DNA of 64,000 nucleotides from a virus. The notes under the pieces were generated by a model, which made no database searches, was not told the DNA's origin, and was given only the letters and a program-made list of their open reading frames with translations. Below, piece by piece: positions 1 through 15,717 of this stretch; within the stretch, counting starts at the first letter, position 1, and every line of letters begins with the position of its first letter. Both the position numbers and the translations under genes were made by a program. The stretch lies in the IMG/VR virus record IMGVR_UViG_3300027754_000047, positions 32,001 to 96,000 of that record. One strand, written 5' to 3'.

Positions 1-3000
1 AACCACCTAGTTCCTCGTCGCCCCAAATCATATATGCTACTTTGAGGTTCTTACCCATAGCTAGGGCACCATTAGCGTCAGTATAGTTAGACTTAGCTAA
101 TAACTGACCAGGCTTAACCTGATCTCCTAGTTTAACTCCAGCAGTATTGTGTATGTAGGTGTTGTGTACTAGTAGACCGCAATCTACTGCAAACACTTGG
201 CTGCTGGCGACTTCGAAGTCATAGACATAGGCGGCAGGTTCAGCCTTAGTAATACTTACTACTGTATCCCACATAACGTCAGAGTCTGCCCAAGGCTTAA
301 GCACTCCGGATTTAATGCGGTGCCGTTGTATGTAGCTTCCAGCAGTAGCAGTCTTGTAAACCGAATGAGGGGTTGTTGCCCCAGTGCCGGCATATGCCAA
401 GACCCTACTAGCCTGAGTAACAGGGATCCCGTCGAACGTAGCAGCCCTAAAACTAAGGGAGGTTAAACTATTTAGCTTTTCGTTTCGGTCCTGGTAGCAG
501 AACCAGGCTGCTAGTCTATTAATGTGGCTAGAGATTACTCTCAGGCCATAACTAGGATTCCAAGCTGCATTTTGGTGGAGCTTAGTCTTTGGCAGTGTGC
601 AGAATATTCCTAGAGAGGCCAAAATATCTACCAGTCTATCTCTCATTAACAAACTAGCAGTCCAAGCTTGTAGCTGTACGGCTCCATTAGTATCTGAGTG
701 TAAGCAACCATCTCCAGACATGTAGCCTTGGATTAGGCCCTTACGAAACTCTACTGAGCGGAGCATAGTTTGCTCAGAGGGAGCCTTAGCGCCACTACCG
801 TGTCCAAACTCTTGCCGCAGCCAAGTAGCGGTTTGCTTACAGGTAAAAGAGGCTTTACCTGTACTAACAGCATTGACGTGAACTTTAAACCCAAGTGTAG
901 TCAAAAGGATATTAAGCTCTGCTTGCCGAGCTGCTGGTTGAGCGGCCAGTACTACTAAGTTTGGCTGACTTGCAGGTATGTGGCCCTCTGCTAAGTATAA
1001 TCCTGCCAATAAGCCCCAAGCATGAGTATCGTGATCCATGGTGCTGCAGGCGCCTAAGGTCATTCCTACTACAGGCAGTCGAGTTACGCCTACCTCACAG
1101 TCAGCTGGATATATGGGCACTAACTCTCCGGAGTCTCCTAGCGTAACTAAGGAGTGATCCTCAGTAGTAACCACTTGACGGCCAGATAGTGTAGTAGTCA
1201 GCACCAGGCGCTTAGTGTTAGGGATCTTAGCAAACCCTGTGATAGGCTCCCAAGCTGCCGCCTTAGTGTCCAGATTAATGGATCTTATTAGATCCCCTGA
1301 CTCTTGCTGATAGTCTTGGGCGGCTACTTGCTGAATTACTCCAGTTGCTCGTTTGATCCAAACTTTGGTAGCTCCGGCAACACACTTACGGTTAAAAGGA
1401 AAGTTGTTGTACAATTCGTACCGCTTCTTATCCTTGCCGTGCTTAACCTCAATGTAGTCTGCTGTTACATCGGTAACCAAACCTGCACCTAAAGCCGCAT
1501 CTGCTCTTACAGCACCTAAATAGGCTGATACTCCATCTTCGAAAGATTTACCTTCAGCATCGTTGGGATCCAGAGCTTGCACTAATGGTGCTTCTGCTTG
1601 CTGTAAAGGTAACGCTTGAGTGAAGTACTTTGAACCCATTAATAAGCGGCCACCCTTAATACCGGAAATACCAGGTACTAGGTTGGAGTTTAAATTAAAC
1701 ATGTTGGCATAGCTTGGTACCTCGTACTGTACAGCCTCAGGCTCTACGTAAGAGATCTTACCATTAACCATAGCTCGTACTGGGTCGCCGGTTCGTAAAG
1801 CCCTAGCAAGCTCGCCTGGAAAAGCTACAACAGCATCGGTAACAGTTCTAGCAGGTATTTGTTCAATCTTACCTGTTTGGATATTCTTCATCTTAGAGTA
1901 GATCTGGCCGTCAGAACCCTTTAAAGCTCCAATGGTTAATCTAAGATCTACACCTACTTGAGAAGATTCTGGAGTGCGTACTGGATCAATAAAGCCTAAG
2001 TGACTTGGTTGAACGGAGCGGGTATCTACAGGAATACCGTGGGCAGCAGAACCAATACCACCTTCGCCGGTGCGAATGACTCTAAGGTTCTGATCCAGAA
2101 TTTCCATTGGATTAACTTCTTCAATGGGCGCACCTAAACCCGAACCCATTAACACTCCACTAAGTACCGGAGTAAACACGCCGTTTCTAAATGCTTGTAA
2201 ATTGCCTTTATTGGTAGCCTTAAAAAGGGCACCACGTAAAGCACCTCCAGCATCTTTAACTATTCGCTCTGCAAAGAAATCCTCAGGGCCATAGAAACGT
2301 TGATAAGTTAAGGCATCGCGATCATCTACATCTTCGCTGCCCTTTTGAGCATTCAAAACCTTTTGACTAGCTCTTAGTAAGGTGCTGCCGGTAACTCTAG
2401 TTAAGTCTTCTTCGTTTAACTGAATGTGATCATTGCTTGCCTCAAAGTTAAACATAGGCTCAGTTGATTTAACTGGATCCATTAAACCGTTTAAATCGTC
2501 AAAGCCTGCTACCTTTACTCCGACAGCTAATCTAAAGCCACCTGTAGGCTTAGGATCTAATAATAAACTGCGGCGAAACTGCTCTAGTTCCGGACAATCA
2601 ATATCGATGCACCATTCTCCGTTATTAGGAGGTAAGACCTGGCGAACAATATAAGTGAAGCGCCGGCCATTACCGCAAGTAGCTTCAAACTTAGACTTAA
2701 AAAGCTTCTTTAGCTTTTTAATTTCTTCAGAAGTAATTACCACTAAACGGCCTTTGTCTTCTACTGGCGAGATACCTGGAGCATTATCTCCGTCTCTTAA
2801 AGCGTAGTAGACTCCGGTAACCATACCTGCAGGTACGGTGATATAACCTTCGGATTCTAATTTAAGGGTACCCCTCATAGGCACCGCTGCAGTCTTAACG
2901 CGAGCTCCTAAAGTTCTAGCTACTACTTCTTTATTAAGCTCAGTGTTATATAGGGCTGTACGAATACCTTCATACAGGTCAGGCTCACTTATGCCACTAG

Positions 3001-3691
3001 ATGGATTACTAGTAAGCCGCTCATATATACGAGCAGCATCATAAGGAGATGATGCTCTATTGTTAGCAAAAATCTCTTTGCCCCAGCTACGCTCAAGTAC
3101 CTCGTCTGGTACTCCGTAAGCCTTAAGCATAGGATATAGTGGCGCAACTGATTGACCAATTTCGGTAACAAACTTACCGGTATCTGGCATGAAGGCAACT
3201 CTAAAGCCTCGACCCTTACCCGGTAAGGTATTAAAGTGAGCTTCGTATTCACCCGACTTACGCTTACGTACATAAGCGCCGGGCAACAACCTAGCTTGAT
3301 TGGCTACAGTGTATTCGCTGCCTGCGTTTATAAAAGTGCCTCTGTTGGTTAAGTAAGGCACTCGAGCTAAAGTTAATGATCTATCTGTCTTATCTAGTAC
3401 AGCTCCGGTGGCTATATCTCGCATAACCAGCTTACCCTTTAACGGGTAATACAAACTTTGATTCTGCATCAAGGCTTGCTGTTGCTCTTTTAAACTGTAA
3501 TCTTCCGACTTACCATAACGCAAGTCAGTCAACTCCACTCTGTAGCGGGTATTTTGTAAAGGAAACTTAGCTGCTACTGCAGTAAAAACATTATCAAAGA
3601 TGTTTTTACGTGTAGCTGTGTAGTCGCTAAAGCCTCTAAGAGTTGGAGCTTGTGGTTGGATTAGGGCGTTTAAATCGTCCTCAGTAGCCAT
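1..3691 (-). CDS. rpoB: Phage-encoded DNA-directed RNA polymerase beta subunit (RpoB-like), intein-containing, 3' end outside window
   Basis: Manual translation from ATG at 3691 (not in ORF track; no stop in the segments translated). Motifs match bacterial RpoB: VPYLTNRGTFINAGSEYTVANQARLLPG, DDRDALTYQRF, RVIRTGEGG..TRSVQPSHLGFIDPVRTPESSQVG, GRLLMGSKYFTQALPLQQAEAPLV, GALAMGKNLKVAYMIW. Confidence 0.93.
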   Translation of the reverse strand, partial: MATEDDLNALIQPQAPTLRGFSDYTATRKNIFDNVFTAVAAKFPLQNTRYRVELTDLRYGKSEDYSLKEQQQALMQNQSLYYPLKGKLVMRDIATGAVLDKTDRSLTLARVPYLTNRGTFINAGSEYTVANQARLLPGAYVRKRKSGEYEAHFNTLPGKGRGFRVAFMPDTGKFVTEIGQSVAPLYPMLKAYGVPDEVLERSWGKEIFANNRASSPYDAARIYERLTSNPSSGISEPDLYEGIRTALYNTELNKEVVARTLGARVKTAAVPMRGTLKLESEGYITVPAGMVTGVYYALRDGDNAPGISPVEDKGRLVVITSEEIKKLKKLFKSKFEATCGNGRRFTYIVRQVLPPNNGEWCIDIDCPELEQFRRSLLLDPKPTGGFRLAVGVKVAGFDDLNGLMDPVKSTEPMFNFEASNDHIQLNEEDLTRVTGSTLLRASQKVLNAQKGSEDVDDRDALTYQRFYGPEDFFAERIVKDAGGALRGALFKATNKGNLQAFRNGVFTPVLSGVLMGSGLGAPIEEVNPMEILDQNLRVIRTGEGGIGSAAHGIPVDTRSVQPSHLGFIDPVRTPESSQVGVDLRLTIGALKGSDGQIYSKMKNIQTGKIEQIPARTVTDAVVAFPGELARALRTGDPVRAMVNGKISYVEPEAVQYEVPSYANMFNLNSNLVPGISGIKGGRLLMGSKYFTQALPLQQAEAPLVQALDPNDAEGKSFEDGVSAYLGAVRADAALGAGLVTDVTADYIEVKHGKDKKRYELYNNFPFNRKCVAGATKVWIKRATGVIQQVAAQDYQQESGDLIRSINLDTKAAAWEPITGFAKIPNTKRLVLTTTLSGRQVVTTEDHSLVTLGDSGELVPIYPADCEVGVTRLPVVGMTLGACSTMDHDTHAWGLLAGLYLAEGHIPASQPNLVVLAAQPAARQAELNILLTTLGFKVHVNAVSTGKASFTCKQTATWLRQEFGHGSGAKAPSEQTMLRSVEFRKGLIQGYMSGDGCLHSDTNGAVQLQAWTASLLMRDRLVDILASLGIFCTLPKTKLHQNAAWNPSYGLRVISSHINRLAAWFCYQDRNEKLNSLTSLSFRAATFDGIPVTQASRVLAYAGTGATTPHSVYKTATAGSYIQRHRIKSGVLKPWADSDVMWDTVVSITKAEPAAYVYDFEVASSQVFAVDCGLLVHNTYIHNTAGVKLGDQVKPGQLLAKSNYTDANGALAMGKNLKVAYMIWGDEELGG
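161..1384 (-). mobile_element. Intein with LAGLIDADG homing endonuclease (408 aa) in RNAP beta
   Basis: In-frame 1224 nt insert. Starts CVAGATKVWI, has block B-like VVTTEDHSL and LAGLIDADG blocks LAGLYLAEG and LIQGYMSGDG, ends YVYDFEV..VFAVDCGLLVHN followed by Thr. Exteins FPFNRK|TYIHN rejoin into the RpoB RSNQNTCINQ-like segment. Confidence 0.93.
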
Positions 3692-3702
3692 AAGGAATTA
3701 AC

Positions 3703-4557: not shown

Positions 4558-4611
4558 CTTATTTTACTCTACTAATAAAGTACATTACTCTTAAATATAC
4601 ATCGTTGCTAC

Positions 4612-5277
4612 TCAGTAACCGACCGTGCCGCCTGGCGGCATATTCATACTAGGTAGAATTGATTCTAAAAGTCCAGGTTCAGCAGGTTTAGCAGGTTCAG
4701 CAGGTTCAGCAGCGTAGCGATCGCCTAACATCTTAGCTCCAATACCTAAGCCGCCTCCAAGTAACGCATACAGGAGTGCGTTGCGTTTGCGGTTTTTTGG
4801 ACCAGATAGTAAGGCAGCTAAACCGCCGCCCAGTAATGCACCTCCGCCGCCATAGAGCGCCATATTGCTTGTGGAGCTGCTAGTAGGGTTTAAATAGCCT
4901 CGTAAGCTAGCTCGCCCAGCAGCTTCTTCCTCTTTAGTTTTAGCTGCGGCTGCGGCTGCTTCACCTTTAGTTTTAGCTGCGGCTGCGGCTGCTTCATCTT
5001 TCTCTCTAGTTGCTATTGCGGCGTTTTGTGCTGCGGTGATAGGGGCGAAAGCTTTTTGACGGGCAGCCTCTCTCTCTACTTCCCGTGCAGCCTCGTTTCT
5101 TATTTTGGCCTGGTCGTTTAGGGTTTTGCCTGGATTCTGTATTCTTTGAATTTCCGCTCTTTGAGCCTCTAGTATTGGATCTGTTGCATTTCCTTCTGGG
5201 CTAAACTGCTCAAGTGTCGGCGAGCCTAATCGGCGAGCGTACTTGGTAATTAAAGCATTTTGTAATCTAATATCCAT
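4612..5277 (-). CDS. Putative virion protein with glycine-zipper C-terminus
   Basis: 221 aa ORF; GGGALLGGGLAALL and LLGGGLGIG segments; Ala-rich repeat. Confidence 0.5.
   Translation of the reverse strand: MDIRLQNALITKYARRLGSPTLEQFSPEGNATDPILEAQRAEIQRIQNPGKTLNDQAKIRNEAAREVEREAARQKAFAPITAAQNAAIATREKDEAAAAAAKTKGEAAAAAAKTKEEEAAGRASLRGYLNPTSSSTSNMALYGGGGALLGGGLAALLSGPKNRKRNALLYALLGGGLGIGAKMLGDRYAAEPAEPAKPAEPGLLESILPSMNMPPGGTVGY
4932..4996. repeat. 33-bp-period tandem duplication encoding EAAAAAAKTK x2
   Basis: ctttagttttagctgcggctgcggctgcttca occurs at 4932 and 4965. Confidence 0.9.
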
Positions 5278-5287
5278 ATTATTTTCC

Positions 5288-5668
5288 TTATACTCCTACC
5301 GGTTGTTGAGTAGGCATTTGCAGTATGTCCATGTCATACAAGTGTAAATGTAATTCTTCTGCAGGCACCTGAATCACGGCAAAATACCTGACCCAAGTAA
5401 TCCAGTTCTGCTCAGGTGCTACCCACTCGACTGTTTCACTAAACTCACACCAGCCTCGATCCCGCCACTTACATAAAACGTCAATAAGCTTATTATAGCT
5501 AATTAAACAATCGGGTTCCCAAAGCTTAAACTGCTTAGAGTTAAAGAAGGGGGTATCTTGGGCTTTACTACTTTCTGGGTCTGTATCTTTATAGATAGGC
5601 TGAGTGGTTCCGTAAAACGGAGGATCACTAATACCTACATGTTTAAAACTAAATTCATCGTTAATCAC
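5288..5668 (-). CDS. Hypothetical protein
   Basis: 126 aa ORF packed in the minus-strand operon. Confidence 0.7.
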   Translation of the reverse strand: MINDEFSFKHVGISDPPFYGTTQPIYKDTDPESSKAQDTPFFNSKQFKLWEPDCLISYNKLIDVLCKWRDRGWCEFSETVEWVAPEQNWITWVRYFAVIQVPAEELHLHLYDMDILQMPTQQPVGV

Positions 5669-5688
5669 TTAATAGCCTTTTAATTCAT

Positions 5689-6051
5689 TTAGTCTACTGG
5701 GCGCTTGACTTGGTCTTTAGCGTTGCGGTATTTAGCAATCAATTGAATCTTCTTTACCTCGCCTAACGGATCATCCTCATCCCCAAGTATATCTCCAGTA
5801 GGGTCTAAAGCACCTTCTACTTGACCCATACCTTTAGCCGCTAAGCCTCCTGCTAAAGCACCACCGGCTAATAAAGTTAAGGCTGCTGTAGCTCCAACCC
5901 AGCCTACGCTTTTACCTATAATTTTTAAGGCACCCATAGCGTCTGCTTGCTTTTGAGGCAACGCAGCCAATAACTCCGACGGAGTATAGCCTAATTCGGC
6001 GGCTTTAGTACAAAAGCCTAATCTAAAAGATTGTAATTCCAAATCAACCAT
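5689..6051 (-). CDS. Putative virion protein, glycine-rich
   Basis: 120 aa ORF, AAGGA upstream, KAA/KQA motifs, LLAGGALAGGLAA segment. Confidence 0.55.
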   Translation of the reverse strand: MVDLELQSFRLGFCTKAAELGYTPSELLAALPQKQADAMGALKIIGKSVGWVGATAALTLLAGGALAGGLAAKGMGQVEGALDPTGDILGDEDDPLGEVKKIQLIAKYRNAKDQVKRPVD

Positions 6052-6092
6052 AATTACAGTTCCTTAAAAATAAGATTCTACCAAAAGTACTA

Positions 6093-7235
6093 CTAGAATC
6101 CTAATTTACCTAAGTTTATCAAAGTACCTAAGGCTGCACCGGTGCCTTGTAACACGTTCTGCTCCATAGGGCTGACATTCATAAACAGCCCAATACCTTT
6201 AGCGGCAACAGCACCTGCAACGGCTCCAGCTCCAGCTCCAATAGCTGCCTTAGCTAGATCCCCTACGGTAAACCAAGGTCTACTACCAGTGTTAGCTGCT
6301 GCTTGCATCAATCCAGCAGCTTGTCCGTGATCTATATAACCGCTGTATAACTGCTCAGCAGCTAAATCTGCTAAATGCATTTTATTAATAGGCAAGTCTA
6401 AATTAATGAAAGCTGCTTTAACCGGAGCTGCAGGTAACGGTAAGTTATATGCTTTGTTCTGATATTGGGCTTTAAATGCCGCGCTATCTGCGTCGGAATA
6501 GGATTCATTAGGCCTTGCACTAAAGTTATTTATTTCTGCGAAAGTATTAGGTAGATTGGCTAACCAAGGAGCTCCCATTCCGGCCATAGCGGCAATACCG
6601 GCTAAGGCTCCACCCTTACCCTCAAACCGCTCAGGGAATAAATACTGCAGTATGGGAATACTCGCTAAACCTAAACCCGTTAAACCAGCTCCGGTAACTA
6701 GATTACCTAATCGTTGTTGATTAGCTCCGCTAACTCCTTCGTCGTACCAGACTCCAGGGCGGTAGCCTAAGTATTTAGGTAAATCTGCGCTAAAGGCTGC
6801 GTGCTTACTTAAATGGTAAGCAGCGGTTGCTGGGTAGGTTGCACTCCAAGGAGTTTGATTTTCAGCTGCTTCTCCCACTTCTTTGGTAGCATTAGTAAGG
6901 TCTGCTTTCATTTGGCTGGCTTGGCTTTTCATCTTAGAGTAGCTACCTTTACCTCCCCCTTTAAAATTAGCCATACCTCTACCAGGCCCCATAGCCTTTA
7001 ACTTAGCCTGCTTACTACCAATGGCAGTACCGTTAATAACTTGCTCAGGTAGGTGCATTCGAAAACCAGTAGGAGTATGAGTAACGCCAACTATGCCGTC
7101 AGCCTCAGAATCAACTATAAACTCGCTAGGACTCTGCATAATAAGTCCTCGCATAATTAAATGCTTTTTATCATAGTCCTTAGTATCTGAGTAAGCTTTA
7201 GCGTTTTTTAAATCTTTAAGTTTAGATTTAACCAT
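6093..7235 (-). CDS. Putative virion internal protein, glycine-zipper rich
   Basis: 380 aa ORF; AIGAGAGAVAGAVAA and similar segments; KQA/KHA/KAA motifs. Confidence 0.55.
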   Translation of the reverse strand: MVKSKLKDLKNAKAYSDTKDYDKKHLIMRGLIMQSPSEFIVDSEADGIVGVTHTPTGFRMHLPEQVINGTAIGSKQAKLKAMGPGRGMANFKGGGKGSYSKMKSQASQMKADLTNATKEVGEAAENQTPWSATYPATAAYHLSKHAAFSADLPKYLGYRPGVWYDEGVSGANQQRLGNLVTGAGLTGLGLASIPILQYLFPERFEGKGGALAGIAAMAGMGAPWLANLPNTFAEINNFSARPNESYSDADSAAFKAQYQNKAYNLPLPAAPVKAAFINLDLPINKMHLADLAAEQLYSGYIDHGQAAGLMQAAANTGSRPWFTVGDLAKAAIGAGAGAVAGAVAAKGIGLFMNVSPMEQNVLQGTGAALGTLINLGKLGF

Positions 7236-8668
7236 TAAAGCGCTCCACTAGGTTTGGCGTCAGAGCCTGGTATTGATTCAAAACTACTAGGAGCTGTTTT
7301 GGCAGTATGGTAGGTTGAAGGAGTTGCAGCGGCTTGAGGAGCAAGGCCTACTCGATTAACAATAGAGTCGTGCAATGCCTGGGCTTTGGCAGGATCCTTG
7401 GCATACAACTCACTAAGTGTAGCGGTATACTGCTCAGGATGCAAAATTAACTGGCTAGCAAGTACGTAGTTAGGATCTGAGGGATTCCAGTCTTTAATAA
7501 CTTGAAGGCGTGGATCATTTGGATTTGCGTAATTTTCCAATTCGCTTTGAATACTAGCTACTTGAGCTTTATTTGCGTTAAAAGCTTTAGCTAGTTCTCT
7601 AGGATATTTCTGATCGCGATAAGACTTTCCTTGATAAGGATTTAAATTATTTAGGAAGTTTCCAAAGCGCCCTAATGTGTTAAAAATAGGCGATTGCTGG
7701 GCTCCGTAGGCATCAACCTGCGGCTGATACCTAGCATACTCCTCAGGATCGGAGGAGTTTGCTTGTGTATTTAATTCCTCAGTCTGTTCGGGAGTTAATT
7801 GAGATCGAATATCTCGTTCGTCAGGTTTTAGGCCGCCGAGGAAAGTGGAACCCACGAACCCAATAGGGCCTAAAGGAGAGACAGGAGTTCCACTAGCTAA
7901 CCCTTTAACTCCTTCAACGGCACCACTAAGCAAACTACCTGTATCTTGGTAAGCATCACTTGCAGAACCAATAGCATTACCCCAAAGATCTACTCCCATG
8001 CTGCCTGTTATGGCTGGAACCCCTAAATTAGTTACAGCTTTTTCCATGTTGCTACCAAAACCAGCTGCCTGATCCCATGGCTGCTTTAGGTATTGCATTA
8101 ACGCTCTAGGGTCTTGTATCCACTGCCTACCAGGGATTAATACATCTCTACCAAAGTTGTATGTGTTATTAAGAGCATTACGCCCTTGTTGAACAGCAAA
8201 GTTAACTGCTTGTTGAGTTCTAGGGTGATTGACCACGCCGGTTGCTGCTGTGGCTATAGGAGCCCCAAGCCTTACCGCTGTACCTGCTAGCGCTGATCCT
8301 GCGGCAGGTACAGCGTTAAGAGCGGCGCTACCCCCTGCTAACATTGCGGGCGCTGCTAAGGCGACGCCTGCGGCTCCGCCGGCTAAACCAGAAACGCCTG
8401 TAGATATGGCAGCAGCGTCTAACAGTTTATCATTCTGGTAATATAGGGGTTGCTTAGTAGTACCAGGTGCAGCGTTATTAACTCTACGGACAGTATCTAG
8501 CCAAGTGGAGTCGTCAGCATAGTCTGACCCAATACGACCACCTGACCAATAATGAGCAGCACCTGTAAAAGGTTCTGCCAATTGATTACCAAACGCAGCC
8601 AACGAACTAGGTGGGGCGGCTGCTCGTTTATTTAAAACAGAAAGAATGGGATACAGTCGAATATCCAT
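7235..8668 (-). CDS. Putative virion internal protein, Gly/Ala-rich
   Basis: 477 aa ORF translationally coupled to the next gene (TAATG overlap); N-terminus MDIRL..NKRAA. Confidence 0.55.
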   Translation of the reverse strand: MDIRLYPILSVLNKRAAAPPSSLAAFGNQLAEPFTGAAHYWSGGRIGSDYADDSTWLDTVRRVNNAAPGTTKQPLYYQNDKLLDAAAISTGVSGLAGGAAGVALAAPAMLAGGSAALNAVPAAGSALAGTAVRLGAPIATAATGVVNHPRTQQAVNFAVQQGRNALNNTYNFGRDVLIPGRQWIQDPRALMQYLKQPWDQAAGFGSNMEKAVTNLGVPAITGSMGVDLWGNAIGSASDAYQDTGSLLSGAVEGVKGLASGTPVSPLGPIGFVGSTFLGGLKPDERDIRSQLTPEQTEELNTQANSSDPEEYARYQPQVDAYGAQQSPIFNTLGRFGNFLNNLNPYQGKSYRDQKYPRELAKAFNANKAQVASIQSELENYANPNDPRLQVIKDWNPSDPNYVLASQLILHPEQYTATLSELYAKDPAKAQALHDSIVNRVGLAPQAAATPSTYHTAKTAPSSFESIPGSDAKPSGAL

Positions 8669-8722
8669 AGGGCTTCGTATTGTAACTGGAATACGGCTAA
8701 AATGACTGCTAAAAGGAACTAG

Positions 8723-8837
8723 GCCCTAAATCAAATGCCACGTTGCCTATACTATAGCACCTATATACACTTAGTATGGCTTAATAATTAGTATATATAG
8801 TGCTATAGTATAGGCAACGTGGCATTTGATTTAGGGC
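8723..8837. repeat. Perfect 38-bp inverted repeat between divergent operons; each arm contains CTAAA-N17-TATACT
   Basis: gccctaaatcaaatgccacgttgcctatactatagcac (8723-8760) and its exact reverse complement (8800-8837). Confidence 0.92.
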
Positions 8838-8915
8838 TCTCAGAGTATTTCTCTATAGAATAGGCAGTTAGCGGAGCAAGGTAAGCTTACATTAATTTGT
8901 GTTACAATTACCAGC

Positions 8916-9302
8916 ATGAAACCAGAATCCACCCCGTTCCTCAAGTTAGCAGAATTAATCGCTAGTGCAGCCTTGGAAGGTTGCGAAAAGGAGTATTCAA
9001 AGAAGACAGTTAAGGATCGCAGTAGTCGAGTTCAAGCTCGACGAGATATGATTCAGCGCCGAGGAGCTGCTGCAGTCAAGGGTAAGGATATTGAGCATAA
9101 AGATGGAAATCCTCGAAACAACAGTCCATCAAATTTAACCTTACGTAGTCGGGCAGCTAACAGATCTGACAACGGCCATCGTAAGGGTGAGCCGTACGCT
9201 AAGGCTAAGAAGGGTATCACTAACACTTACAAAAGAGCTATGGCTTTGCCGGGAGTATTATTTCGTTTAGCTACTAAGTTTGGAGGAAATAATGACAGCT
9301 GA
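8916..9302 (+). CDS. HNH-motif endonuclease-like small protein
   Basis: KDIEHKDGNPRNNSPSNLTLRSRAANRS fits the HNH fold signature. Confidence 0.7.
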   Translation: MKPESTPFLKLAELIASAALEGCEKEYSKKTVKDRSSRVQARRDMIQRRGAAAVKGKDIEHKDGNPRNNSPSNLTLRSRAANRSDNGHRKGEPYAKAKKGITNTYKRAMALPGVLFRLATKFGGNNDS

Positions 9303-9726
9303 ATTGTGGTCGATGTTAGGCGGCTCCGTGGTAGGATTCTTATTTCGTTATTTAGCTGAGAAGCGCCAAAATGAAAAAGAACTATTTGAACGTTTAATTA
9401 AACTTAATCAAGCCACTACCGACAATTACAACGCAGCAGCCCAACGAGTGCCTGTAGATTTAGGTAAAAACATTAGACAGATTATTGTTTTGACTATACT
9501 GTTTGGCACTTTGATTGCTCCTTTTATCTTACCCTTTTTTGGGGTGCCTACTTTTGTAGAAGTAGATACCGTCACTCCTGGTGGCCCCTTTGGTTTAATT
9601 GCGTCTGTAGCTAAGAAGTACTTTGTAGAGATTAACGGTTTCTTGTATACTAGTGAGAATCGCCAGATCTTGGTAGCGGTAGTTGGTTTCTATTTTGGCT
9701 CAGCCGCAGCCTCAAATAAAAGTTAA
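9292..9726 (+). CDS. Membrane protein (3 predicted TM segments), holin-like
   Basis: GGAGG SD before ATG 9292; hydrophobic segments at N-terminus, middle and C-terminal ILVAVVGFYFGS. Confidence 0.55.
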   Translation: MTAELWSMLGGSVVGFLFRYLAEKRQNEKELFERLIKLNQATTDNYNAAAQRVPVDLGKNIRQIIVLTILFGTLIAPFILPFFGVPTFVEVDTVTPGGPFGLIASVAKKYFVEINGFLYTSENRQILVAVVGFYFGSAAASNKS

Positions 9727-9737
9727 AGGAGTTTACT

Positions 9738-10037
9738 ATGCCTAATGTAATTACTTGGATCAAATACACCTTGAGTCACGCCTTTAGTAGTACAAGTCTT
9801 TTGTTATACTTAGTTTGTATCTTAGGTTTTTTGGCTGCTTGTAATGCTGCTCCGGAATTAGTTCCAGCCAGCCCGATACCTAACGTTGTTATTGAACGCA
9901 TTAAAGACAATATTGCCAACCCTGGCCCAACTACAAATAGTTACGTTTGGTTGTGGGTGTGGATTCCAGCAGTAGGCTTAGTAGGCACATGGGCAGTTAA
10001 GACTTTATTCTTTGCCAAGCCTAAAGCTGACGTTTAA
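9738..10037 (+). CDS. Predicted lipoprotein with C-terminal TM helix (u-spanin-like topology)
   Basis: AAGGAG SD; hydrophobic stretch ending in lipobox LAAC; C-terminal YVWLWVWIPAVGLVGTWAV. Confidence 0.45.
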   Translation: MPNVITWIKYTLSHAFSSTSLLLYLVCILGFLAACNAAPELVPASPIPNVVIERIKDNIANPGPTTNSYVWLWVWIPAVGLVGTWAVKTLFFAKPKADV

Positions 10038-10064
10038 CTTAACTCTTATTAAAAAGGAGTACTT

Positions 10065-10427
10065 ATGCAAATCTATAATCACTTACGCCCTCAGTTAGTA
10101 GCCAACATTAAACAAGCCTCATTGATGGGTATGGAGAATCCTACGGCAGGCGGAGTACTTGGCGGCTTGGGGGGTGCCGGCCTAGGTGCTGGCTTATTAC
10201 ACCTTTTAGCAGCTGATGATAAGAAGACTTTAATGAACTACTTAATGGCTGCCGGTGGTGGTGGTTTAGCTGGTGCCGGAGTTGGCGTCGGCGCAGGTAA
10301 GCTTAAAGATTCATTTGACTTTGTAGCTAAAGAAAAAGAACAAGGTAACGCTGACGGCGACTCTGGTACTGCTGCTAAACAGGAAACAGATAAAGCTAAT
10401 AAAGAACTAGAAGCAGCTAAAAAGTAA
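10065..10427 (+). CDS. Glycine-zipper protein, putative virion protein
   Basis: AAGGAG SD; NIKQAS motif followed by GGVLGGLGGAGLGAGLL. Confidence 0.55.
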   Translation: MQIYNHLRPQLVANIKQASLMGMENPTAGGVLGGLGGAGLGAGLLHLLAADDKKTLMNYLMAAGGGGLAGAGVGVGAGKLKDSFDFVAKEKEQGNADGDSGTAAKQETDKANKELEAAKK

Positions 10428-10435
10428 ATCCTTTT

Positions 10436-10483
10436 AATAGCTAAAAGAAAACAAGCCCCAAGGTTTTAACCTGGGGCTTGTTT
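10436..10483 (-). terminator. Intrinsic terminator (probably bidirectional) with TTTTAGCTATT tail
   Basis: aaacaagcccca-aggttttaacc-tggggcttgttt hairpin between convergent genes; aatagctaaaa at 10436. Confidence 0.85.
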
Positions 10484-10502
10484 ATTATGTGATTATGGGT
10501 AT

Positions 10503-11960
10503 TCAGTCTCGCAACGCAGCAGGGCTGCGGCGGCGAATCTGAGGCACTTGTTGAACTTCTTCCGGCAAGTTGTACTCATGCGCTGCCACCTCAATGGCCT
10601 GGGCCAAGATAGTAGCAGCCTTTTCTCGCTCCGAGTTATGAGTCCTCGGTGCTCGGTTTACCAGCTTCAGCTGAAGGCGCATAGCCTCGAAGGCCTCCAT
10701 GATGTCCTCTGGCAACACCACGTTGCGGTCTGCTAGTTGAGCAAGAATAGCGGCTGCAACGCCGATCTGCACCACGGTGCTTGGGTTCTGGTGCCCGCAA
10801 GTCTGCAGCTTGTCTAACCAAGTGTTGGTGTCCACTTTGGTGGTCAAATTACAAACTCTACCCAACAAACGCAGGCTAGCTTCTGGAGCTAAAGGCTCCA
10901 TCTCAATCAAGCTATTCATTCTGCCTGGTCGAAGGAATACAGGCAGAATGCGCTCGGTATCGTTGACCGTAAAGATGGTCATCAACGAGCGACCCTTGGT
11001 GCTGACGCCGTCCAGGACGTTCGTCAAGTTGTCTTGGCGAATGGTACGCTCATCGTTCTCGGACTCCATCAAACGATTCACGTCTTCCACTACTAGGATG
11101 GCCGGTTCATACTGCTGAGCCCACTCGTTACCAAACTCAAGATCGCGAGCATCTTTGATGAAGATGCAAGTGATGCCTCGGCTGCTTGCTTCGGCCATTA
11201 CTGCATTTACCAAAGCAGACTTACCGGTACCGTAACCGCCAACCAACATGTGGTTGGATTGAAAACGGACTGCACCTGCTGCGCCCTTCAACACATCTTG
11301 CCGGCGCAAACGCTGCAAGATTTGCGTGTTGATTCGCTTCTCTGTTGCAGGGTTGAAGACCAGGTCTTCGAGGACTCCCTTGCAGTCCTCGTATTTTGCC
11401 ACGTGTCGCGCATGGTTGAAGGCAGTCCCTTCACCTCTACGGTAAGGGAACTCAATTGAAACAATCGTCCCCTTCACCTTAGAGTGAATGCCGGTTGCGA
11501 TGTTTCCTCGCAACGTTGCTTCAAACTGCTCCACAATGCGAGTCAACAGGCCAGGTGCTTTAATGCGCAACCGCAAGTAAGGCTCGTCTGTGTATTCTGC
11601 TTGCTCCAGGCTGGCCTGGATGCTTATGTTGTATTTTCCACCGTCTTCAGCAGAGACGACTTTTAATTCAATCCAACTGCCGATTGGCACTTGCACTGTC
11701 TGACCCTTATTTTGGATAGACAGTTTGCTTGCCCCTGCAGGGACTATCGGAACGCAATCCAACTGGTGGATTGTTGCCCAATAGCTTAGAAGGGCATCTT
11801 CGAAGTAAATGCCCGTCAACTGCACATATGTGTTGACCATTTCTTCTTGGCTGGCCACGTATGCCGCCAATGCTGCTGATGTTGCCTTCAGGCCAAAGCC
11901 TGTTGGCGCCTGAACCCCAATGTGGTTCGGGGTATGCTGCTGAAACTTGACTTCATTCAT
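10503..11960 (-). CDS. AAA+ ATPase (classic AAA clade) with long N-terminal domain
   Basis: Walker A GGYGTGKS, Walker B ILVVED, LTNVLDG, SRH FLRPGRMN. Confidence 0.88.
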   Translation of the reverse strand: MNEVKFQQHTPNHIGVQAPTGFGLKATSAALAAYVASQEEMVNTYVQLTGIYFEDALLSYWATIHQLDCVPIVPAGASKLSIQNKGQTVQVPIGSWIELKVVSAEDGGKYNISIQASLEQAEYTDEPYLRLRIKAPGLLTRIVEQFEATLRGNIATGIHSKVKGTIVSIEFPYRRGEGTAFNHARHVAKYEDCKGVLEDLVFNPATEKRINTQILQRLRRQDVLKGAAGAVRFQSNHMLVGGYGTGKSALVNAVMAEASSRGITCIFIKDARDLEFGNEWAQQYEPAILVVEDVNRLMESENDERTIRQDNLTNVLDGVSTKGRSLMTIFTVNDTERILPVFLRPGRMNSLIEMEPLAPEASLRLLGRVCNLTTKVDTNTWLDKLQTCGHQNPSTVVQIGVAAAILAQLADRNVVLPEDIMEAFEAMRLQLKLVNRAPRTHNSEREKAATILAQAIEVAAHEYNLPEEVQQVPQIRRRSPAALRD

Positions 11961-12863: not shown

Positions 12864-13541
12864 CTACGGAACGTCCGTAGGGTTACAAATTTGTTGTTTC
12901 TTTCGCGGGGCGCGAATACGGCGCACGCAACCCTTACGCCATCTAGCAGCAGTTGCCTTGCCGTCAAGGTTAACCCAGCTGTAGCTATTATCTTGCGCTT
13001 GCACTGCTTTACCTACTTCCCGCAGGGCTTCGTTGCTAAGCATGCAAATGTATCCTTTGGACCCGTCGATTCTTACTGCAACTTGTTTTTGCATCAGGTC
13101 CTCAATGTACAAAGCCTCTAACACCCAGCGCTGGTCTGGGTAAAGGTGAGCTTGATCTAACAGCTCTTTCAATTCCTCTTTATGAGGAACCTTTTTGGCT
13201 TGAGGGTCCCAAACGCATTTTGTTTTCATTTCGCTCAGCACCTTAACTGCATCAAAAGACAAAAACTTAGGCCTAGTTCGGTAATGAGTTCCTTGCCTAC
13301 CGTAAGTTTTTCGTATTAGGTCCTTCACGCAAAAGATGCTTTTGCGGGGAGCGAAGCTTAAATCTTTACCCACCCCCATTAGTTGCATGATGGCGTCATG
13401 GGCTGCTGATTCCGCATCCACTAAGGGGTCGTCTACTCGGCCTACTCTTTTAAGGTACTTCCGGCAAAGAAAGCAGCTTATGCGAATAGCCTTTTTGATA
13501 TTAGCCTCGGAATAATCTGGGGCTTCTATTACTGCTTCCAT
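12864..13541 (-). CDS. Sigma70-family-like transcription factor (divergent)
   Basis: Region 2-like DAESAAHDAIMQL..VKDLIRK and region 4 HTH-like LYPDQRWVLEALYIEDLMQKQVAVRIDGSKGYICMLSNEAL. Confidence 0.65.
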   Translation of the reverse strand: MEAVIEAPDYSEANIKKAIRISCFLCRKYLKRVGRVDDPLVDAESAAHDAIMQLMGVGKDLSFAPRKSIFCVKDLIRKTYGRQGTHYRTRPKFLSFDAVKVLSEMKTKCVWDPQAKKVPHKEELKELLDQAHLYPDQRWVLEALYIEDLMQKQVAVRIDGSKGYICMLSNEALREVGKAVQAQDNSYSWVNLDGKATAARWRKGCVRRIRAPRKKQQICNPTDVP

Positions 13542-13714
13542 TTGAGTACCGTTCTAGAGACTATGTACAGTCCTGCTAAAACAGTGCCACAAGTGATTAT
13601 GTAGCGGCCTGTAATTGCGTCGCCTTTTAGGGCTTCGATTACTCCTGCAGCTACGGGAGCTACGGCCACCCAGAACTCTGTAGTCCGAGTGCCTGATTTC
13701 ATAGTTGGGTCCAT
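13529..13714 (-). CDS. Small two-TM membrane protein, holin-like
   Basis: KSGTRTTEFW N-terminal motif followed by two hydrophobic segments. Confidence 0.55.
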   Translation of the reverse strand: MDPTMKSGTRTTEFWVAVAPVAAGVIEALKGDAITGRYIITCGTVLAGLYIVSRTVLKWKQ

Positions 13715-13775
13715 TTGGAGCCTTACCGCGTTGCGGCATTAAGAGTGTATCTTATTGCCTAACTCGGCTATGAAA

Positions 13776-14192: not shown

Positions 14193-14414
14193 TTAGTCAG
14201 ATAAATCTTCATCTTCTATTAGCAATTCCAAATCTAATTCACTATTTTTATTTTGTAAATCAGGGAAACTAATGTTGGTACTCGTTTGGCTAGGCTTATT
14301 TGCTAAGTTATTGGAGTAATCAATCTGAGCTTGGGTGTAGTCTGATTGTTTAACGTATGAGGTTGACAGTATTGCCTTGTACGAAATTAGTGTTTCTTTT
14401 TTACGACGACCCAT
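14193..14414 (-). CDS. Hypothetical protein, basic N-terminus and acidic C-terminus
   Basis: 73 aa ORF, AGGTG upstream, promoter motif at 14461-14492. Confidence 0.55.
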   Translation of the reverse strand: MGRRKKETLISYKAILSTSYVKQSDYTQAQIDYSNNLANKPSQTSTNISFPDLQNKNSELDLELLIEDEDLSD

Positions 14415-14460
14415 TTTGCACCTGTTAGCTAAATGAAGAGCTCTAATGAGTTCTTTCTAA

Positions 14461-14492
14461 GTCATTATAACTTATTTTTACCGAATGTTTAG
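14461..14492 (-). promoter_or_regulatory. Promoter CTAAA-N18-TATAAT
   Basis: Minus strand ctaaacattcggtaaaaataagttataatgac. Confidence 0.55.
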
Positions 14493-14496
14493 TGGC

Positions 14497-15156
14497 TTAA
14501 AGTTGCATAGTTTCGACAAAAGGATTGCCATCAATGACTACTCCACAAGCTATAATAGGCTTTTTAAGAAAAGCTGCACCGTATTGCATAGCCCAATGGT
14601 TGCGATCCACTCCGCAACCAATGTTCATACCCCATACTTTAGCTGTTGGCCCTGCTTGATACCAGACTCCACAAGCTGAGTGATAGTGCCCTAATACCGT
14701 AGATTGCATTCGCAACTTGGCTGCATTGAATGCGGGTTGTTGGCCTCCGGCTCCTTCGCCGTGGTAGTAGTAGACTCCGTCGATTTCAACGTTATCTACC
14801 CATTTCCAACTATGAGTGTCGTATAAGGAGTTGAACTCCTTTAAGTAAAGCCTAGGAATTCCTAGTTTAGCGTTTAATCGAAGTACTCTTAGATCATGAT
14901 TACCTACAGTTATGCTTGCTGTAGGGAATGCTTCGTATAGTTGTTTAACTTGCTTACAAGCCAAGTCGTATTCTAATGCTGCTCCAGGATTCTCTGGGTG
15001 CTTATCGTGAAAAGATATGCAATGATGGTCAACAACGTCTCCAATATGTACTACCTTATCTATACGCCAACGTTTAGCAACTGCCTTTAAAAAGGGAATA
15101 TATTTGCGATGCATGGCTGGGGCGTGGGTGTCCCCGATTACTAATACTCTGCTCAT
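14497..15156 (-). CDS. Calcineurin-like metallophosphoesterase
   Basis: GDTH, GDVVD, GNHD, HG and GHYH motifs. Confidence 0.9.
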   Translation of the reverse strand: MSRVLVIGDTHAPAMHRKYIPFLKAVAKRWRIDKVVHIGDVVDHHCISFHDKHPENPGAALEYDLACKQVKQLYEAFPTASITVGNHDLRVLRLNAKLGIPRLYLKEFNSLYDTHSWKWVDNVEIDGVYYYHGEGAGGQQPAFNAAKLRMQSTVLGHYHSACGVWYQAGPTAKVWGMNIGCGVDRNHWAMQYGAAFLKKPIIACGVVIDGNPFVETMQL

Positions 15157-15207
15157 TTAGGCTCCAAAGTAAGTGGATACTGTCAACTTATTGTTAGCTA
15201 AGGGCGC

Positions 15208-15236
15208 AGAGTAAGCAGGTAAGGTACCGGTGTCAA
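15208..15236 (-). promoter_or_regulatory. Sigma70-type promoter TTGACA-N17-TACTCT
   Basis: Minus strand ttgaca ccggtaccttacctgct tactct upstream of the phosphoesterase gene. Confidence 0.55.
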
Positions 15237-15249
15237 GTTTAGGCTATTG

Positions 15250-15286
15250 ATAGCTAAAAGAATGTGTAGGGTGGAACCCCTACACA
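15250..15286 (-). terminator. Intrinsic terminator with TTTTAGCTAT tail
   Basis: tgtgtaggg-tggaac-ccctacaca hairpin; atagctaaaa at 15250. Confidence 0.8.
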
Positions 15287-15342
15287 CTCCCTTTGATTGA
15301 ACCTGTAAACCCGTTAGCAAACAGGTTCAAGTCCAAGCCAGG

Positions 15343-15717
15343 TTATCGCATTAACATAATGCGATCATTAATGATTTTGATCTTGCGCTTGTTAACAAGC
15401 CTTCGTAGGCGTTGGCCGATTTGCTGGCGGCTGAGACCTGCCTCAACTGCCGCCAGGTATATTTTTTGTTTCAGTACTACTCCTTCGGGGTCGCTGAGCT
15501 CACGCACTATCTTTAGCACTCCTGCCTCCAGGGGTTCTCCTTCCTTTGCCTTTTTTGGAGGCTTTGGAGGTGAGAACAAAGACTGCTTGGGCCCATCCAA
15601 TGTGGGGCTAACTTTGATGTCTAGGCTCCAACCGGAGCCGACGGCCGCAGTGTGTAGGGCTTCGGCTAATTGTACAATCTCTTTCAGTCTGGCAAACGGA
15701 CCTTTTATATCTTTCAT
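15343..15717 (-). CDS. Hypothetical protein, possible C-terminal winged helix
   Basis: ATG 15717 avoids overlap with the upstream kinase; GLSRQQIGQRLRRLVNKRKIKI is HTH-like. Confidence 0.5.
   Translation of the reverse strand: MKDIKGPFARLKEIVQLAEALHTAAVGSGWSLDIKVSPTLDGPKQSLFSPPKPPKKAKEGEPLEAGVLKIVRELSDPEGVVLKQKIYLAAVEAGLSRQQIGQRLRRLVNKRKIKIINDRIMLMR

What the first reader, a model, noticed from the sequence alone, without database searches (positions are those of the whole stretch)
2507..2896. ~130 aa domain inserted in RNAP beta, bracketed by K-x-A motifs and resembling a degenerate 2H phosphoesterase
Seen: between VKTAA and VKVAG lies YITVPAGMVTGVYYAL..PGISP..GRLVVITSEEI..WCIDIDCPELEQFRRSLLLDPKPTGGFRLAVG, which I cannot match to RpoB. 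From memory it resembles phage 2H phosphoesterases, with both H-x-T/S motifs replaced (RLVV, FRLAV). Inference: an inactive nucleic-acid-binding passenger domain that a head protease could excise, splitting beta after translation.
Basis: inference. Interest (0 to 1): 0.7.

Follow-up and report, generated by a model that had tools for sequence, protein, structure and literature searches.

The report
Dead phosphoesterase domain inside phage RNA polymerase
An uncultured phage's own RNA polymerase carries, in a surface lobe, a well-conserved copy of a 2H phosphoesterase enzyme domain that has lost both catalytic histidines, while related phages keep working copies at almost the same spot.

Summary
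Window 2507-2896 (minus strand) encodes aa 266-395 of a phage RNA polymerase ORF (beta fused to the N-half of beta'). 66 of 120 homologues, and cultured Salmonella phage Arash, lack aa ~264-428, so it is a true insertion in the beta lobe.

The insert is a 2H phosphoesterase domain of the 2H-SAK type (Pfam PF22547):
- Profile-profile matches reach E 1.5e-27.
- In the AlphaFold model the 21 best PDB matches are all 2H enzymes.

Both H-x-S/T motifs are gone (R315-L-V, R387-L-A) in all 35 members of this clade. They are intact in 19 other RNAP homologues and in 151 of 154 other domains. The dead domain is about as conserved as the polymerase around it (71% against 74-77%), so it is a retained pseudoenzyme.

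The flanking K-x-A motifs are conserved across the family, lie beside or in flexible linkers, and also end shared N-terminal leaders in this genome. Protease excision is therefore possible but unshown.

I found no paper describing this. The scan has noted the same thing on other DNA (e1-5816132, e1-5816143). Its function is unknown. I favour a non-catalytic phosphate or RNA-binding or docking module.

The parts
2..3691 (-). Part of the phage RNA polymerase ORF lying in the window (aa 1-1230 of 2045). It is beta fused to the N-terminal half of beta' and is interrupted by an intein.
2906..2944 (-). Helix T250-G262 (TELNKEVVARTLG), the last conserved lobe element before the insert. In the clade with intact 2H this helix lies after the insert.
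2888..2896 (-). K266-T-A268, the N-side K-x-A in the short junction (aa 261-270 block has pLDDT 63).
2513..2881 (-). Folded core of the degenerate 2H (2H-SAK type) domain, aa 271-393.
2741..2749 (-). Remnant of H-x-S/T motif 1: R315-L316-V317.
2573..2575 (-). R373, invariant in the dead, intact and free-standing 2H-SAK groups.
2525..2533 (-). Remnant of H-x-S/T motif 2: R387-L388-A389.
2507..2515 (-). K393-V-A395, the C-side K-x-A at the end of the last strand.
2408..2506 (-). Fast-evolving linker aa 396-428, predicted disordered (aa 397-419 pLDDT under 50). It holds K408-S-T where most relatives have K-x-A-A.
2387..2407 (-). D429-G435 (DLTRVTG), where the alignment to insert-less polymerases resumes.

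Best explanation
Residues ~264-428 are a lineage-specific insertion in the beta lobe (beta2) of a phage-encoded, bacterial-type RNA polymerase. Its core (aa 271-393) is a 2H phosphoesterase domain of the 2H-SAK type that has lost both catalytic H-x-S/T motifs and a loop present in active members, so it cannot work by the 2H mechanism.

It descends from an active 2H domain of the kind still found at almost the same site in related phage polymerases, and in stand-alone or multi-domain phage proteins. It is kept under purifying selection as a non-enzymatic module, tethered by a short N-linker and a ~30-residue disordered C-linker.

Shown: the insertion, the fold, the homology, the loss of catalytic residues and the conservation.

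Inferred, with roughly 30% confidence: the module still binds a phosphate-bearing ligand or RNA end, or serves as a docking surface on the polymerase. Arg/Lys replaces the motif-2 His in every member, and an Arg invariant in active relatives is kept.
For: Insertion:
- Short homologues skip query 263-431.
- 66 of 120 homologues have no such domain.
- Arash gp206 skips it.
- Insert-less forms are colinear with bacterial beta. Profile position 263 corresponds to E. coli beta 420.
- The N-terminal model matches bacterial beta chains, including the beta1-beta2 domain structure 4kbj.

Homology:
- hhalign of the query clade against the intact RNAP-borne domains gives 99.3%, E 4.6e-20.
- Against 144 free-standing domains it gives 99.8%, E 1.5e-27.
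- 16 of 26 aligned domains hit Pfam PF22547 2H-SAK, best E 1e-10.
- 9 of 10 sampled free relatives hit PF22547.

Fold:
- The AF2 model has pLDDT 83.5 and pTM 0.72, with the order b-b-a-b-b-a-b-b-a-b.
- In VIA-align against 48,161 chains, ranks 1-21 are all 2H-fold entries, Z 6.3-3.9. Examples are MHV ns2, CNPase, 2'-5' RNA ligase, drCPDase, Usb1, a phage PDE, Acb1, AKAP18 and VP3. The next, unrelated row has Z 3.0.

Loss of catalysis:
- 14 of 14 aligned clade members, and 35 of 35 by HMM, lack the two H-x-S/T motifs.
- 12 of 12 and 19 of 19 intact-clade members have both.
- 151 of 154 other domain matches have both.
- The P-x-G-W loop of active forms is deleted.

Selection: mean pairwise identity among 28 clade members is 70.8% in the core, against 73.7% and 77.0% in the flanking polymerase and 37.0% in the linker.

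Basic replacements: motif 2 His is Arg or Lys in 35 of 35, motif 1 His is Arg or Lys in 25 of 35, and R373 is invariant in all groups.
Against: - The query segment itself gets no Pfam hit at E up to 1 other than a chance row and no PHROG.
- A sequence-profile search of the PDB found no 2H chain. The best row was a lysozyme repeat at E 0.0036.
- Foldseek gave no match at E <= 0.001. The best was drCPDase 5h7e at E 0.037, and some non-2H rows (ModE) rank among the first ten.
- VIA-align Z values of 5-6 are in the range the tool calls 'middling'.
- No binding or activity data exist, so the proposed ligand or RNA binding rests only on residue patterns.
Confidence: 0.8

Rival explanations
1. The polymerase is packaged in the head, and the head-maturation protease cuts at the K-x-A sites in the linkers. 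This releases the dead 2H module and leaves beta as two associated fragments.
For: K-x-A at the junctions is conserved across both deep clades:
- N side: 38 of 53 sequences (13.6 expected from shuffling the same windows).
- C side, at least one: 52 of 53 (16.6 expected).
- C side, at least two: 41 of 53 (2.7 expected).

The same holds around free or multi-domain 2H-SAK domains: 73 of 114 N-side (26.7 expected) and 94 of 121 C-side (48.9 expected).

Other points:
- The C-linker is predicted disordered (aa 397-419, pLDDT under 50).
- Five ORFs of this genome share a leader MIK(L/I)A(N/S)NL...KQA. One lies directly downstream of the polymerase gene.
- K-x-A falls at residues 8-30 in 22 of 127 crude ORFs, against 9.6% of background windows (p 0.005).
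- The insert-less homologue gp206 is the most-detected protein in the Arash virion proteome (PMC10585845, passages).
- Naturally split beta subunits work in phiKZ-like phages (PMC7824862, passages).
Against: - There is no cleavage data.
- No prohead protease or gp23-type capsid gene was recognised in this record. The controls rang nowhere and the record is 73% complete, so this is inconclusive.
- K-x-A is not enriched in the polymerase as a whole (14 against 12.8), so the motif alone cannot define a site.
- The polymerase N-terminus has no such leader.
- In the query the second C-side site reads K-S-T.
- A released dead enzyme has no obvious use, and the core is conserved like the enzyme around it.
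- The motif could simply be an inherited boundary feature of the domain family.
Confidence: 0.22
2. The domain is still an enzyme that uses other residues in place of the two histidines.
For: Arg/Lys at both former His positions and the invariant R373 could still bind phosphate. The fold is preserved at good confidence.
Against: Both His and both Ser/Thr are gone in 35 of 35 clade members. One member has His at motif 1 only. 151 of 154 other family domains keep all four. The 2H superfamily is defined by the two histidines (PMC9503650, passage in section 3.4.5). The loop conserved in active forms is deleted.
Confidence: 0.03
3. It is an ordinary part of the beta lobe or a known lineage-specific insertion such as E. 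coli beta SI1, and the 2H likeness is chance.
For: Bacterial beta lobes do carry lineage-specific insertions (recalled: Lane and Darst 2010). Foldseek E-values are weak.
Against: - Insert-less homologues are colinear with bacterial beta.
- The site maps near E. coli beta ~415. That is not the SI1 site (225-343, recalled).
- Profile-profile E values are 1e-20 to 1e-27 to 2H-SAK domains.
- The 21 top structural matches are all 2H.
Confidence: 0.02

Closest known systems
2H-SAK domain (Pfam PF22547), stand-alone or at the N-terminus of multi-domain phage proteins; the 2H domains of phage polyvalent proteins (Iyer et al. 2017, PMC5512222, section 'The 2H phosphoesterase domain' read in full)
   Same: Same domain family by profile-profile comparison (99.8%, E 1.5e-27). 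Same predicted fold. The scaffold residues are shared: G274, V286, P287, E323, G342, P355, L369, R373, P382, F386. K-x-A motifs flank the domain in both settings.
   Different: Both H-x-S/T motifs and the P-x-G-W loop are lost. The domain is inserted inside an RNA polymerase beta lobe rather than being free or terminal. The query does not reach the Pfam threshold.
Intact 2H inserts in related phage RNA polymerases (19 of the 120 homologues, for example P0036, P0039, P0049; database sequences only, no publication found)
   Same: Same polymerase family, same lobe region and the same domain type. The domain tree prefers the two groups as one clade and the polymerase tree does not reject this (AU p 0.47).
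   Different: Those keep H-x-S/T twice. They lie one short helix earlier in the lobe. They are often joined by further modules such as SET, an LNS2-like domain or a Cys-rich segment.
Phage anti-CBASS nuclease Acb1 (PDB 7t27) and Burkholderia phage BCSR5 phosphodiesterase (9q2y)
   Same: Small phage 2H-fold domains of similar size. VIA-align gives Z 5.0 (rmsd 3.6 over 100 residues) and Z 5.3 (rmsd 4.4 over 107 residues).
   Different: Those are active enzymes with both histidines. Sequence identity is 9-13%. They are free proteins.
Lineage-specific insertions of bacterial RNAP beta (for example E. coli beta SI1; recalled from Lane and Darst 2010, not read here)
   Same: A surface insertion in the beta lobe that the catalytic core does not need, present in some lineages only.
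   Different: It sits at a different site (near E. coli ~415) and has a different fold. It is an enzyme-derived 2H domain, not the beta-beta' module type.
HD phosphohydrolase fused to the beta C-terminal part in RNAPs of Bacillus jumbo phages (PMC7824862, passage in section 3.4.3)
   Same: A phosphohydrolase-type domain joined to a phage multisubunit RNAP beta subunit.
   Different: That one is terminal, of another superfamily, is described as active, and belongs to the split phiKZ-type polymerases.
mReC lineage polymerases (Weinheimer and Aylward 2020, PMC7481178) and Salmonella phage Arash gp206 (PMC10585845)
   Same: Phage-encoded, bacterial-like beta/beta'. Arash gp206 is a full-length homologue: 33% identity to P0057 over 1530 alignment columns (about 1490 residues of gp206).
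   Different: Arash gp206 has no 2H insert. The mReC paper has no occurrence of 'insert', 'intein' or 'phosphoesterase'. Whether its contigs are this same family was not tested.

Membership tests
2H phosphoesterase superfamily | Internally duplicated alpha+beta fold with two lobes, each ending in the strand that carries the motif | tested here: met
   The AF2 model (pLDDT 83.5) has the order b-b-a-b-b-a-b-b-a-b, with the motif remnants at the start of strands 315-319 and 386-393. Ranks 1-21 of VIA-align are all 2H-fold entries, Z 6.3-3.9.
2H phosphoesterase superfamily | Two H-x-S/T catalytic motifs | tested here: not met
   R315-L-V317 and R387-L-A389 stand at the aligned positions. So it is a homologue of the family but not a catalytic member.
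2H phosphoesterase superfamily | Phosphodiesterase activity | not testable with these tools
   This needs an enzyme assay.
Pfam PF22547 2H-SAK | Score over the gathering threshold (27 bits) | tested here: not met
   The query segment has no hit at E up to 1. Homologue P0036 scores 33.8 bits and P0033 26.7 bits. 16 of 26 aligned domains hit at E <= 1.
Pfam PF22547 2H-SAK | Homology to family members by profile-profile comparison | tested here: met
   hhalign gives 99.8%, E 1.5e-27 to 144 free domains. 9 of 10 sampled proteins carry PF22547.
Bacterial-type RNAP beta subunit | Colinear beta domains around the segment | tested here: met
   Rpb2_3 is at 524-587. Taq beta 92-210 and 394-580 align to query 82-202 and 522-705. 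Foldseek of the aa 1-520 model hits beta chains at E down to 3e-15.
Known beta-lobe insertion SI1 of E. coli type | Same site and the beta-beta' module fold | tested here: not met
   The site maps near E. coli 415; the SI1 range is recalled from memory. The fold matches are 2H, not that module.
Capsid-targeted, protease-processed head proteins (T4 internal-protein type) | N-terminal targeting leader ending in the cleavage motif | tested here: not met
   The polymerase starts MATEDDLNAL... with no K-x-A in the first 30 residues. Five other ORFs do have a shared K-Q-A leader.
Capsid-targeted, protease-processed head proteins (T4 internal-protein type) | Head protease present and cleavage at the motif | tested here: inconclusive
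   PF03420 was not found, but the control genomes did not ring and the record is 73% complete. Cleavage itself is not testable here.
Phage beta-beta'N fused RNAP family | Beta and the N-half of beta' up to NADFDGD in one ORF | tested here: met
   P0002 (the window's full product, 2045 aa) carries Rpb2_6, Rpb1_1 and Rpb1_2. The family consensus ends after NADFDGD. Beta' chains align to profile positions 1063-1455.

The most novel reading that the evidence does not exclude
The beta lobe of this phage polymerase family is a cargo slot. Enzyme modules (2H, SET, LNS2-like and others), each bounded by K-x-A protease sites, are carried into the host inside a virion-packaged polymerase. In this clade the 2H module has been converted into a non-hydrolysing binder. 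It would act as a sensor or sponge for 2',3'-cyclic-phosphate RNA ends or cyclic-oligonucleotide defence signals, and would act on or from the polymerase.
Probability: 0.12. Interest if true: 0.8.

Novelty: new variant of a known kind. Interest (0 to 1): 0.55.

Why it matters
Lineage-specific insertions in RNA polymerase are usually small structural modules. Here an enzyme domain typical of phage counter-defence and RNA-repair proteins sits inside the polymerase, active in some phages and dead but conserved in others.

This gives a natural pair of active and dead forms for asking two questions: what a 2H domain does on a polymerase, and what a 2H pseudoenzyme binds. If the flanking K-x-A motifs are maturation sites, it would also show a phage using its virion polymerase as a carrier for cargo, and a beta subunit split after translation.

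The practical gain is modest. The family has at least one cultured, insert-less member (Arash) but no cultured member with the insert that I could find.

Tried and rejected
Searches that gave little or nothing:
- Direct family searches with the segment gave nothing: Pfam and PHROGs.
- A sequence-profile search of the PDB found no 2H chain.
- Foldseek on the domain model gave only weak rows, best E 0.037. The assignment rests on VIA-align and profile-profile comparison.
- megablast of window 1-8000 against phage records found no match.
- tblastn of aa 1-520 found 4 records, each covering only aa 35-264.
- PHROGs on 29 ORFs of the genome named only replication genes, an HNH endonuclease, an ATPase and one baseplate wedge. 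No head genes were named.
- PF03420 (T4 prohead protease), PF07068 (gp23) and PF04998 (Rpb1 domain 5) were not found in the record. For the first two the control genomes did not ring, and the record is 73% complete, so absence is not shown.
- No second 2H-SAK copy is present in the held 129 kb.

Ideas considered and dropped:
- Independent insertion in the two clades. The polymerase tree separates them by insert-less lineages. But holding them together costs only 1.33 lnL (AU 0.47), and the domain tree prefers one clade. This stays unresolved.
- K-x-A enrichment as a composition effect of Lys/Ala-rich linkers. Rejected by shuffling within the same windows.

Limits of the trees:
- The core tree used 67 of 69 hand-picked rows out of the 120 homologues. 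P0062 and P0097 were dropped for lack of the DDRD anchor.
- The domain tree used 26 RNAP-borne domains and every second one of the 144 free domains (72).
- Neither tree is rooted.

Literature. Searches were 10 papers; '2H-SAK', 0; 0; 2. No paper was found that describes a 2H domain inside an RNAP beta subunit. Supplements were not opened and may hold domain tables.
Full report
**What is there.** The finding lies on the minus strand. Window 2..3691 is the first 1230 codons of an ORF that runs off the window. The whole product is 2045 aa (P0002). It is a bacterial-type RNA polymerase beta subunit fused to the N-terminal half of beta', and the family consensus ends just after NADFDGD. A LAGLIDADG intein interrupts it at aa 770-1177.

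**It is an insertion.**
- In blastp of aa 1-600 against the 120 listed homologues, the forms of about 1450-1490 aa align to query ~1-262. They resume at ~430-433 with only a few residues between.
- An HMM of the segment finds the domain in 54 of the 120 and not in 66.
- Salmonella phage Arash gp206 is a cultured full-length homologue, 33% identical to P0057 along its length. It also lacks the domain.
- The insert-less forms are colinear with bacterial beta. Profile position 263, just after the insertion point, corresponds to E. coli beta 420. [quoted passage not shown]
- An AlphaFold model of aa 1-520 (pLDDT 84.9) matches bacterial beta chains, including the beta1-beta2 domain structure 4kbj.
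- The same model shows a folded unit at 271-393. It is joined by a short junction (block 261-270, pLDDT 63) and a disordered stretch at 397-419 (pLDDT under 50).

**It is a 2H domain.**
- The segment alone hits nothing in Pfam or PHROGs.
- Homologues at the same place do hit Pfam PF22547, '2H-SAK, Swiss Army Knife 2H phosphoesterase'. P0036 scores 33.8 bits against a cut-off of 27. 16 of 26 aligned domains hit it, best E 1e-10, and some also hit the 2'-5' RNA ligase and LigT families.
- Profile-profile comparison links the query's clade to these intact domains (99.3%, E 4.6e-20).
- It also links the clade directly to 144 free-standing relatives (99.8%, E 1.5e-27). These relatives came from a search of 1.84 billion representatives, with 845 clusters at E <= 0.001. 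9 of 10 sampled ones carry PF22547.
- The model of aa 264-400 has pLDDT 83.5 and pTM 0.72.
- Aligned to 48,161 PDB representatives, its first 21 matches are all 2H-fold entries. They include MHV ns2 (Z 6.3), CNPase (6.1), 2'-5' RNA ligase (5.9), drCPDase (5.8), YjcG, Usb1, a phage phosphodiesterase (5.3), Acb1 (5.0), AKAP18, rotavirus VP3 and ASCC1 (3.9). The next row is unrelated at Z 3.0.
- Against this, Foldseek gave no row at E <= 0.001 (best drCPDase, E 0.037), and a sequence-profile search of the PDB found no 2H chain.

**It is catalytically dead, and its relatives are not.**
- At the two aligned motif positions the query has R315-L-V317 and R387-L-A389.
- All 35 members of its clade lack the pair of H-x-S/T motifs. 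One member has His at motif 1 but no Ser/Thr there.
- All 19 members of the other insert-bearing group have both motifs, as do 151 of 154 other domain matches.
- Motif 2 His is replaced by Arg or Lys in 35 of 35. Motif 1 His is replaced by Arg or Lys in 25 of 35.
- A P-x-G-W loop conserved in active forms is deleted. Scaffold positions, and an Arg invariant in all three groups (R373), are kept.

**It is retained by selection.** Among 28 clade members the mean pairwise identity is 70.8% in the core. It is 73.7% and 77.0% in the polymerase on either side, and 37.0% in the linker at 396-428. This is not a decaying relic.

**History.**
- On a tree of the polymerase downstream of the insert (67 rows), the dead clade is one branch with full support. 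The intact group forms another, with two insert-less members inside or beside it.
- Insert-less lineages lie between the two. Even so, forcing all insert-bearing rows together costs only 1.33 log-likelihood units (AU p 0.47).
- On a tree of the domains (98 rows, 136 columns), the tree with the two polymerase-borne groups held together is better than the freely found one by 46.6 units (AU 0.87).
- One origin is therefore compatible with both trees, but it is not shown.
- An oddity remains. The short helix ELDPEVTxxTLG lies before the domain in the dead clade and after it in the intact clade.
- In addition, the dead clade shares Pro287 with free-standing domains, where the intact clade has His.

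**The K-x-A motifs.**
- In the whole protein K-x-A is at chance level (14 seen, 12.8 expected).
- At the junctions of the insert it is conserved in both clades, even though the linkers otherwise barely align.
  - N side: 38 of 53 sequences, against 13.6 expected from shuffling the same windows.
  - C side, at least one: 52 of 53, against 16.6 expected.
  - C side, at least two: 41 of 53, against 2.7 expected.
- These sequences are related, so this is conservation, not independent recurrence.
- The same motif flanks free or multi-domain 2H-SAK domains: 73 of 114 N-side (26.7 expected) and 94 of 121 C-side (48.9 expected).
- In this genome five ORFs share a leader MIK(L/I)A(N/S)NL...KQA, and one of them lies directly downstream of the polymerase gene.
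- K-x-A falls at residues 8-30 in 22 of 127 crude ORFs, against 9.6% of background windows (p 0.005).
- In phage Arash the homologous beta is the most-detected protein of the virion proteome (PMC10585845, passages). The authors allow carry-over of abundant proteins as an alternative.
- Together this makes a packaged polymerase with protease-sensitive linkers a fair hypothesis. But nothing here shows cleavage. No protease or capsid gene was recognised in this 73%-complete record (inconclusive). The polymerase has no such leader. In the query the second C-side site reads K-S-T.

**What it most likely does.**
- Shown: a dead 2H-SAK domain is inserted in the beta lobe, flexibly tethered and conserved.
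- Inferred: it serves without catalysis. The most likely role is a binder of a phosphate-bearing ligand or RNA end, or a docking surface on the polymerase. The reasons are the basic residues at both former His positions and the retained invariant Arg. I put about 30% on that specific reading and about 22% on excision by a head protease. The two do not exclude each other.
- For the intact relatives, the roles proposed for this 2H type in phage polyvalent proteins apply. These are RNase action or degradation of defence nucleotides (PMC5512222, section read in full).

**Comparison and novelty.**
- The closest known things are listed here:
  - the 2H-SAK domains of phage polyvalent and stand-alone proteins;
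  - small phage 2H enzymes such as Acb1;
  - bacterial beta-lobe insertions;
  - the HD domain fused to beta in Bacillus jumbo-phage polymerases (PMC7824862, passages).
- The paper on multisubunit-RNAP-encoding Caudovirales has no occurrence of 'insert', 'intein' or 'phosphoesterase' (PMC7481178).
- My seven searches found no description of a 2H domain inside beta.
- Precomputed Pfam labels already mark PF22547 on some intact homologues, so those are detectable by routine annotation. The dead form is not.
- Earlier notes of this scan report the same dead insert on other genomes (e1-5816132, e1-5816143) and intact ones (e1-5801543, e1-5859844). I reached the same reading from my own calls.
- I class it as a new variant of a known kind.

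Noticed in passing
window 161..1384 (minus): A LAGLIDADG intein of 408 aa (aa 770-1177) splits the beta subunit between FNRK and TYIHNT. A 99%-identical homologue (P0003, 1637 aa) reads straight across the junction, so the intein was gained or lost recently. Other family members carry inteins too.
   Followed up: partly
window 2..3691 and L001 15554..17998 (minus): The polymerase ORF is beta fused to the N-half of beta', ending just after NADFDGD. No Rpb1 domain 5 (the C-half of beta') was found in the 129-kb record, which CheckV rates 73% complete.
   Followed up: partly
L001 12906..13151, 13183..13737, 14400..15557 (minus); L003 1883..2362, 5629..6171 (plus): Five ORFs share an N-terminal leader MIK(L/I)A(N/S)NL...KQA. 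The third lies directly downstream of the polymerase gene. This looks like a capsid-targeting or processing leader.
   Followed up: partly
window 4612..5277 and 7235..8668 (minus): Two ORFs upstream of the polymerase both start MDIRL and have K-Y-A or K-R-A at residues 12-16. The second shares the segment FGNQLAEPF with the ORF at L001 14400..15557.
   Followed up: no
homologues P0036, P0042, P0043, P0041/P0044/P0056 (no window coordinates): Relatives with an intact 2H insert carry further modules at or near the same lobe site. These are a SET domain, an LNS2-like domain and a Cys-rich segment. P0043 also has a GNAT domain at the N-terminus.
   Followed up: partly
window 2906..2944 versus homologues: The 2H insert sits after the helix ELDPEVTxxTLG in the dead clade and before it in the intact clade. 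The segment IQLNEED after the query's linker may be a vestige of a second copy of that helix.
   Followed up: partly
homologues P0048 and P0054: Two insert-less polymerases sit inside or beside the clade with intact 2H inserts on the core tree. This suggests secondary loss of the cassette.
   Followed up: no
L002 (Salmonella phage Arash, OQ632216.1) 6926..11503: gp206 is a cultured, insert-less member of this beta-beta'N family. It is encoded next to the portal gene and reported as the most-detected virion protein. My exact-string search found no NADFDGD in it. I did not look further.
   Followed up: partly
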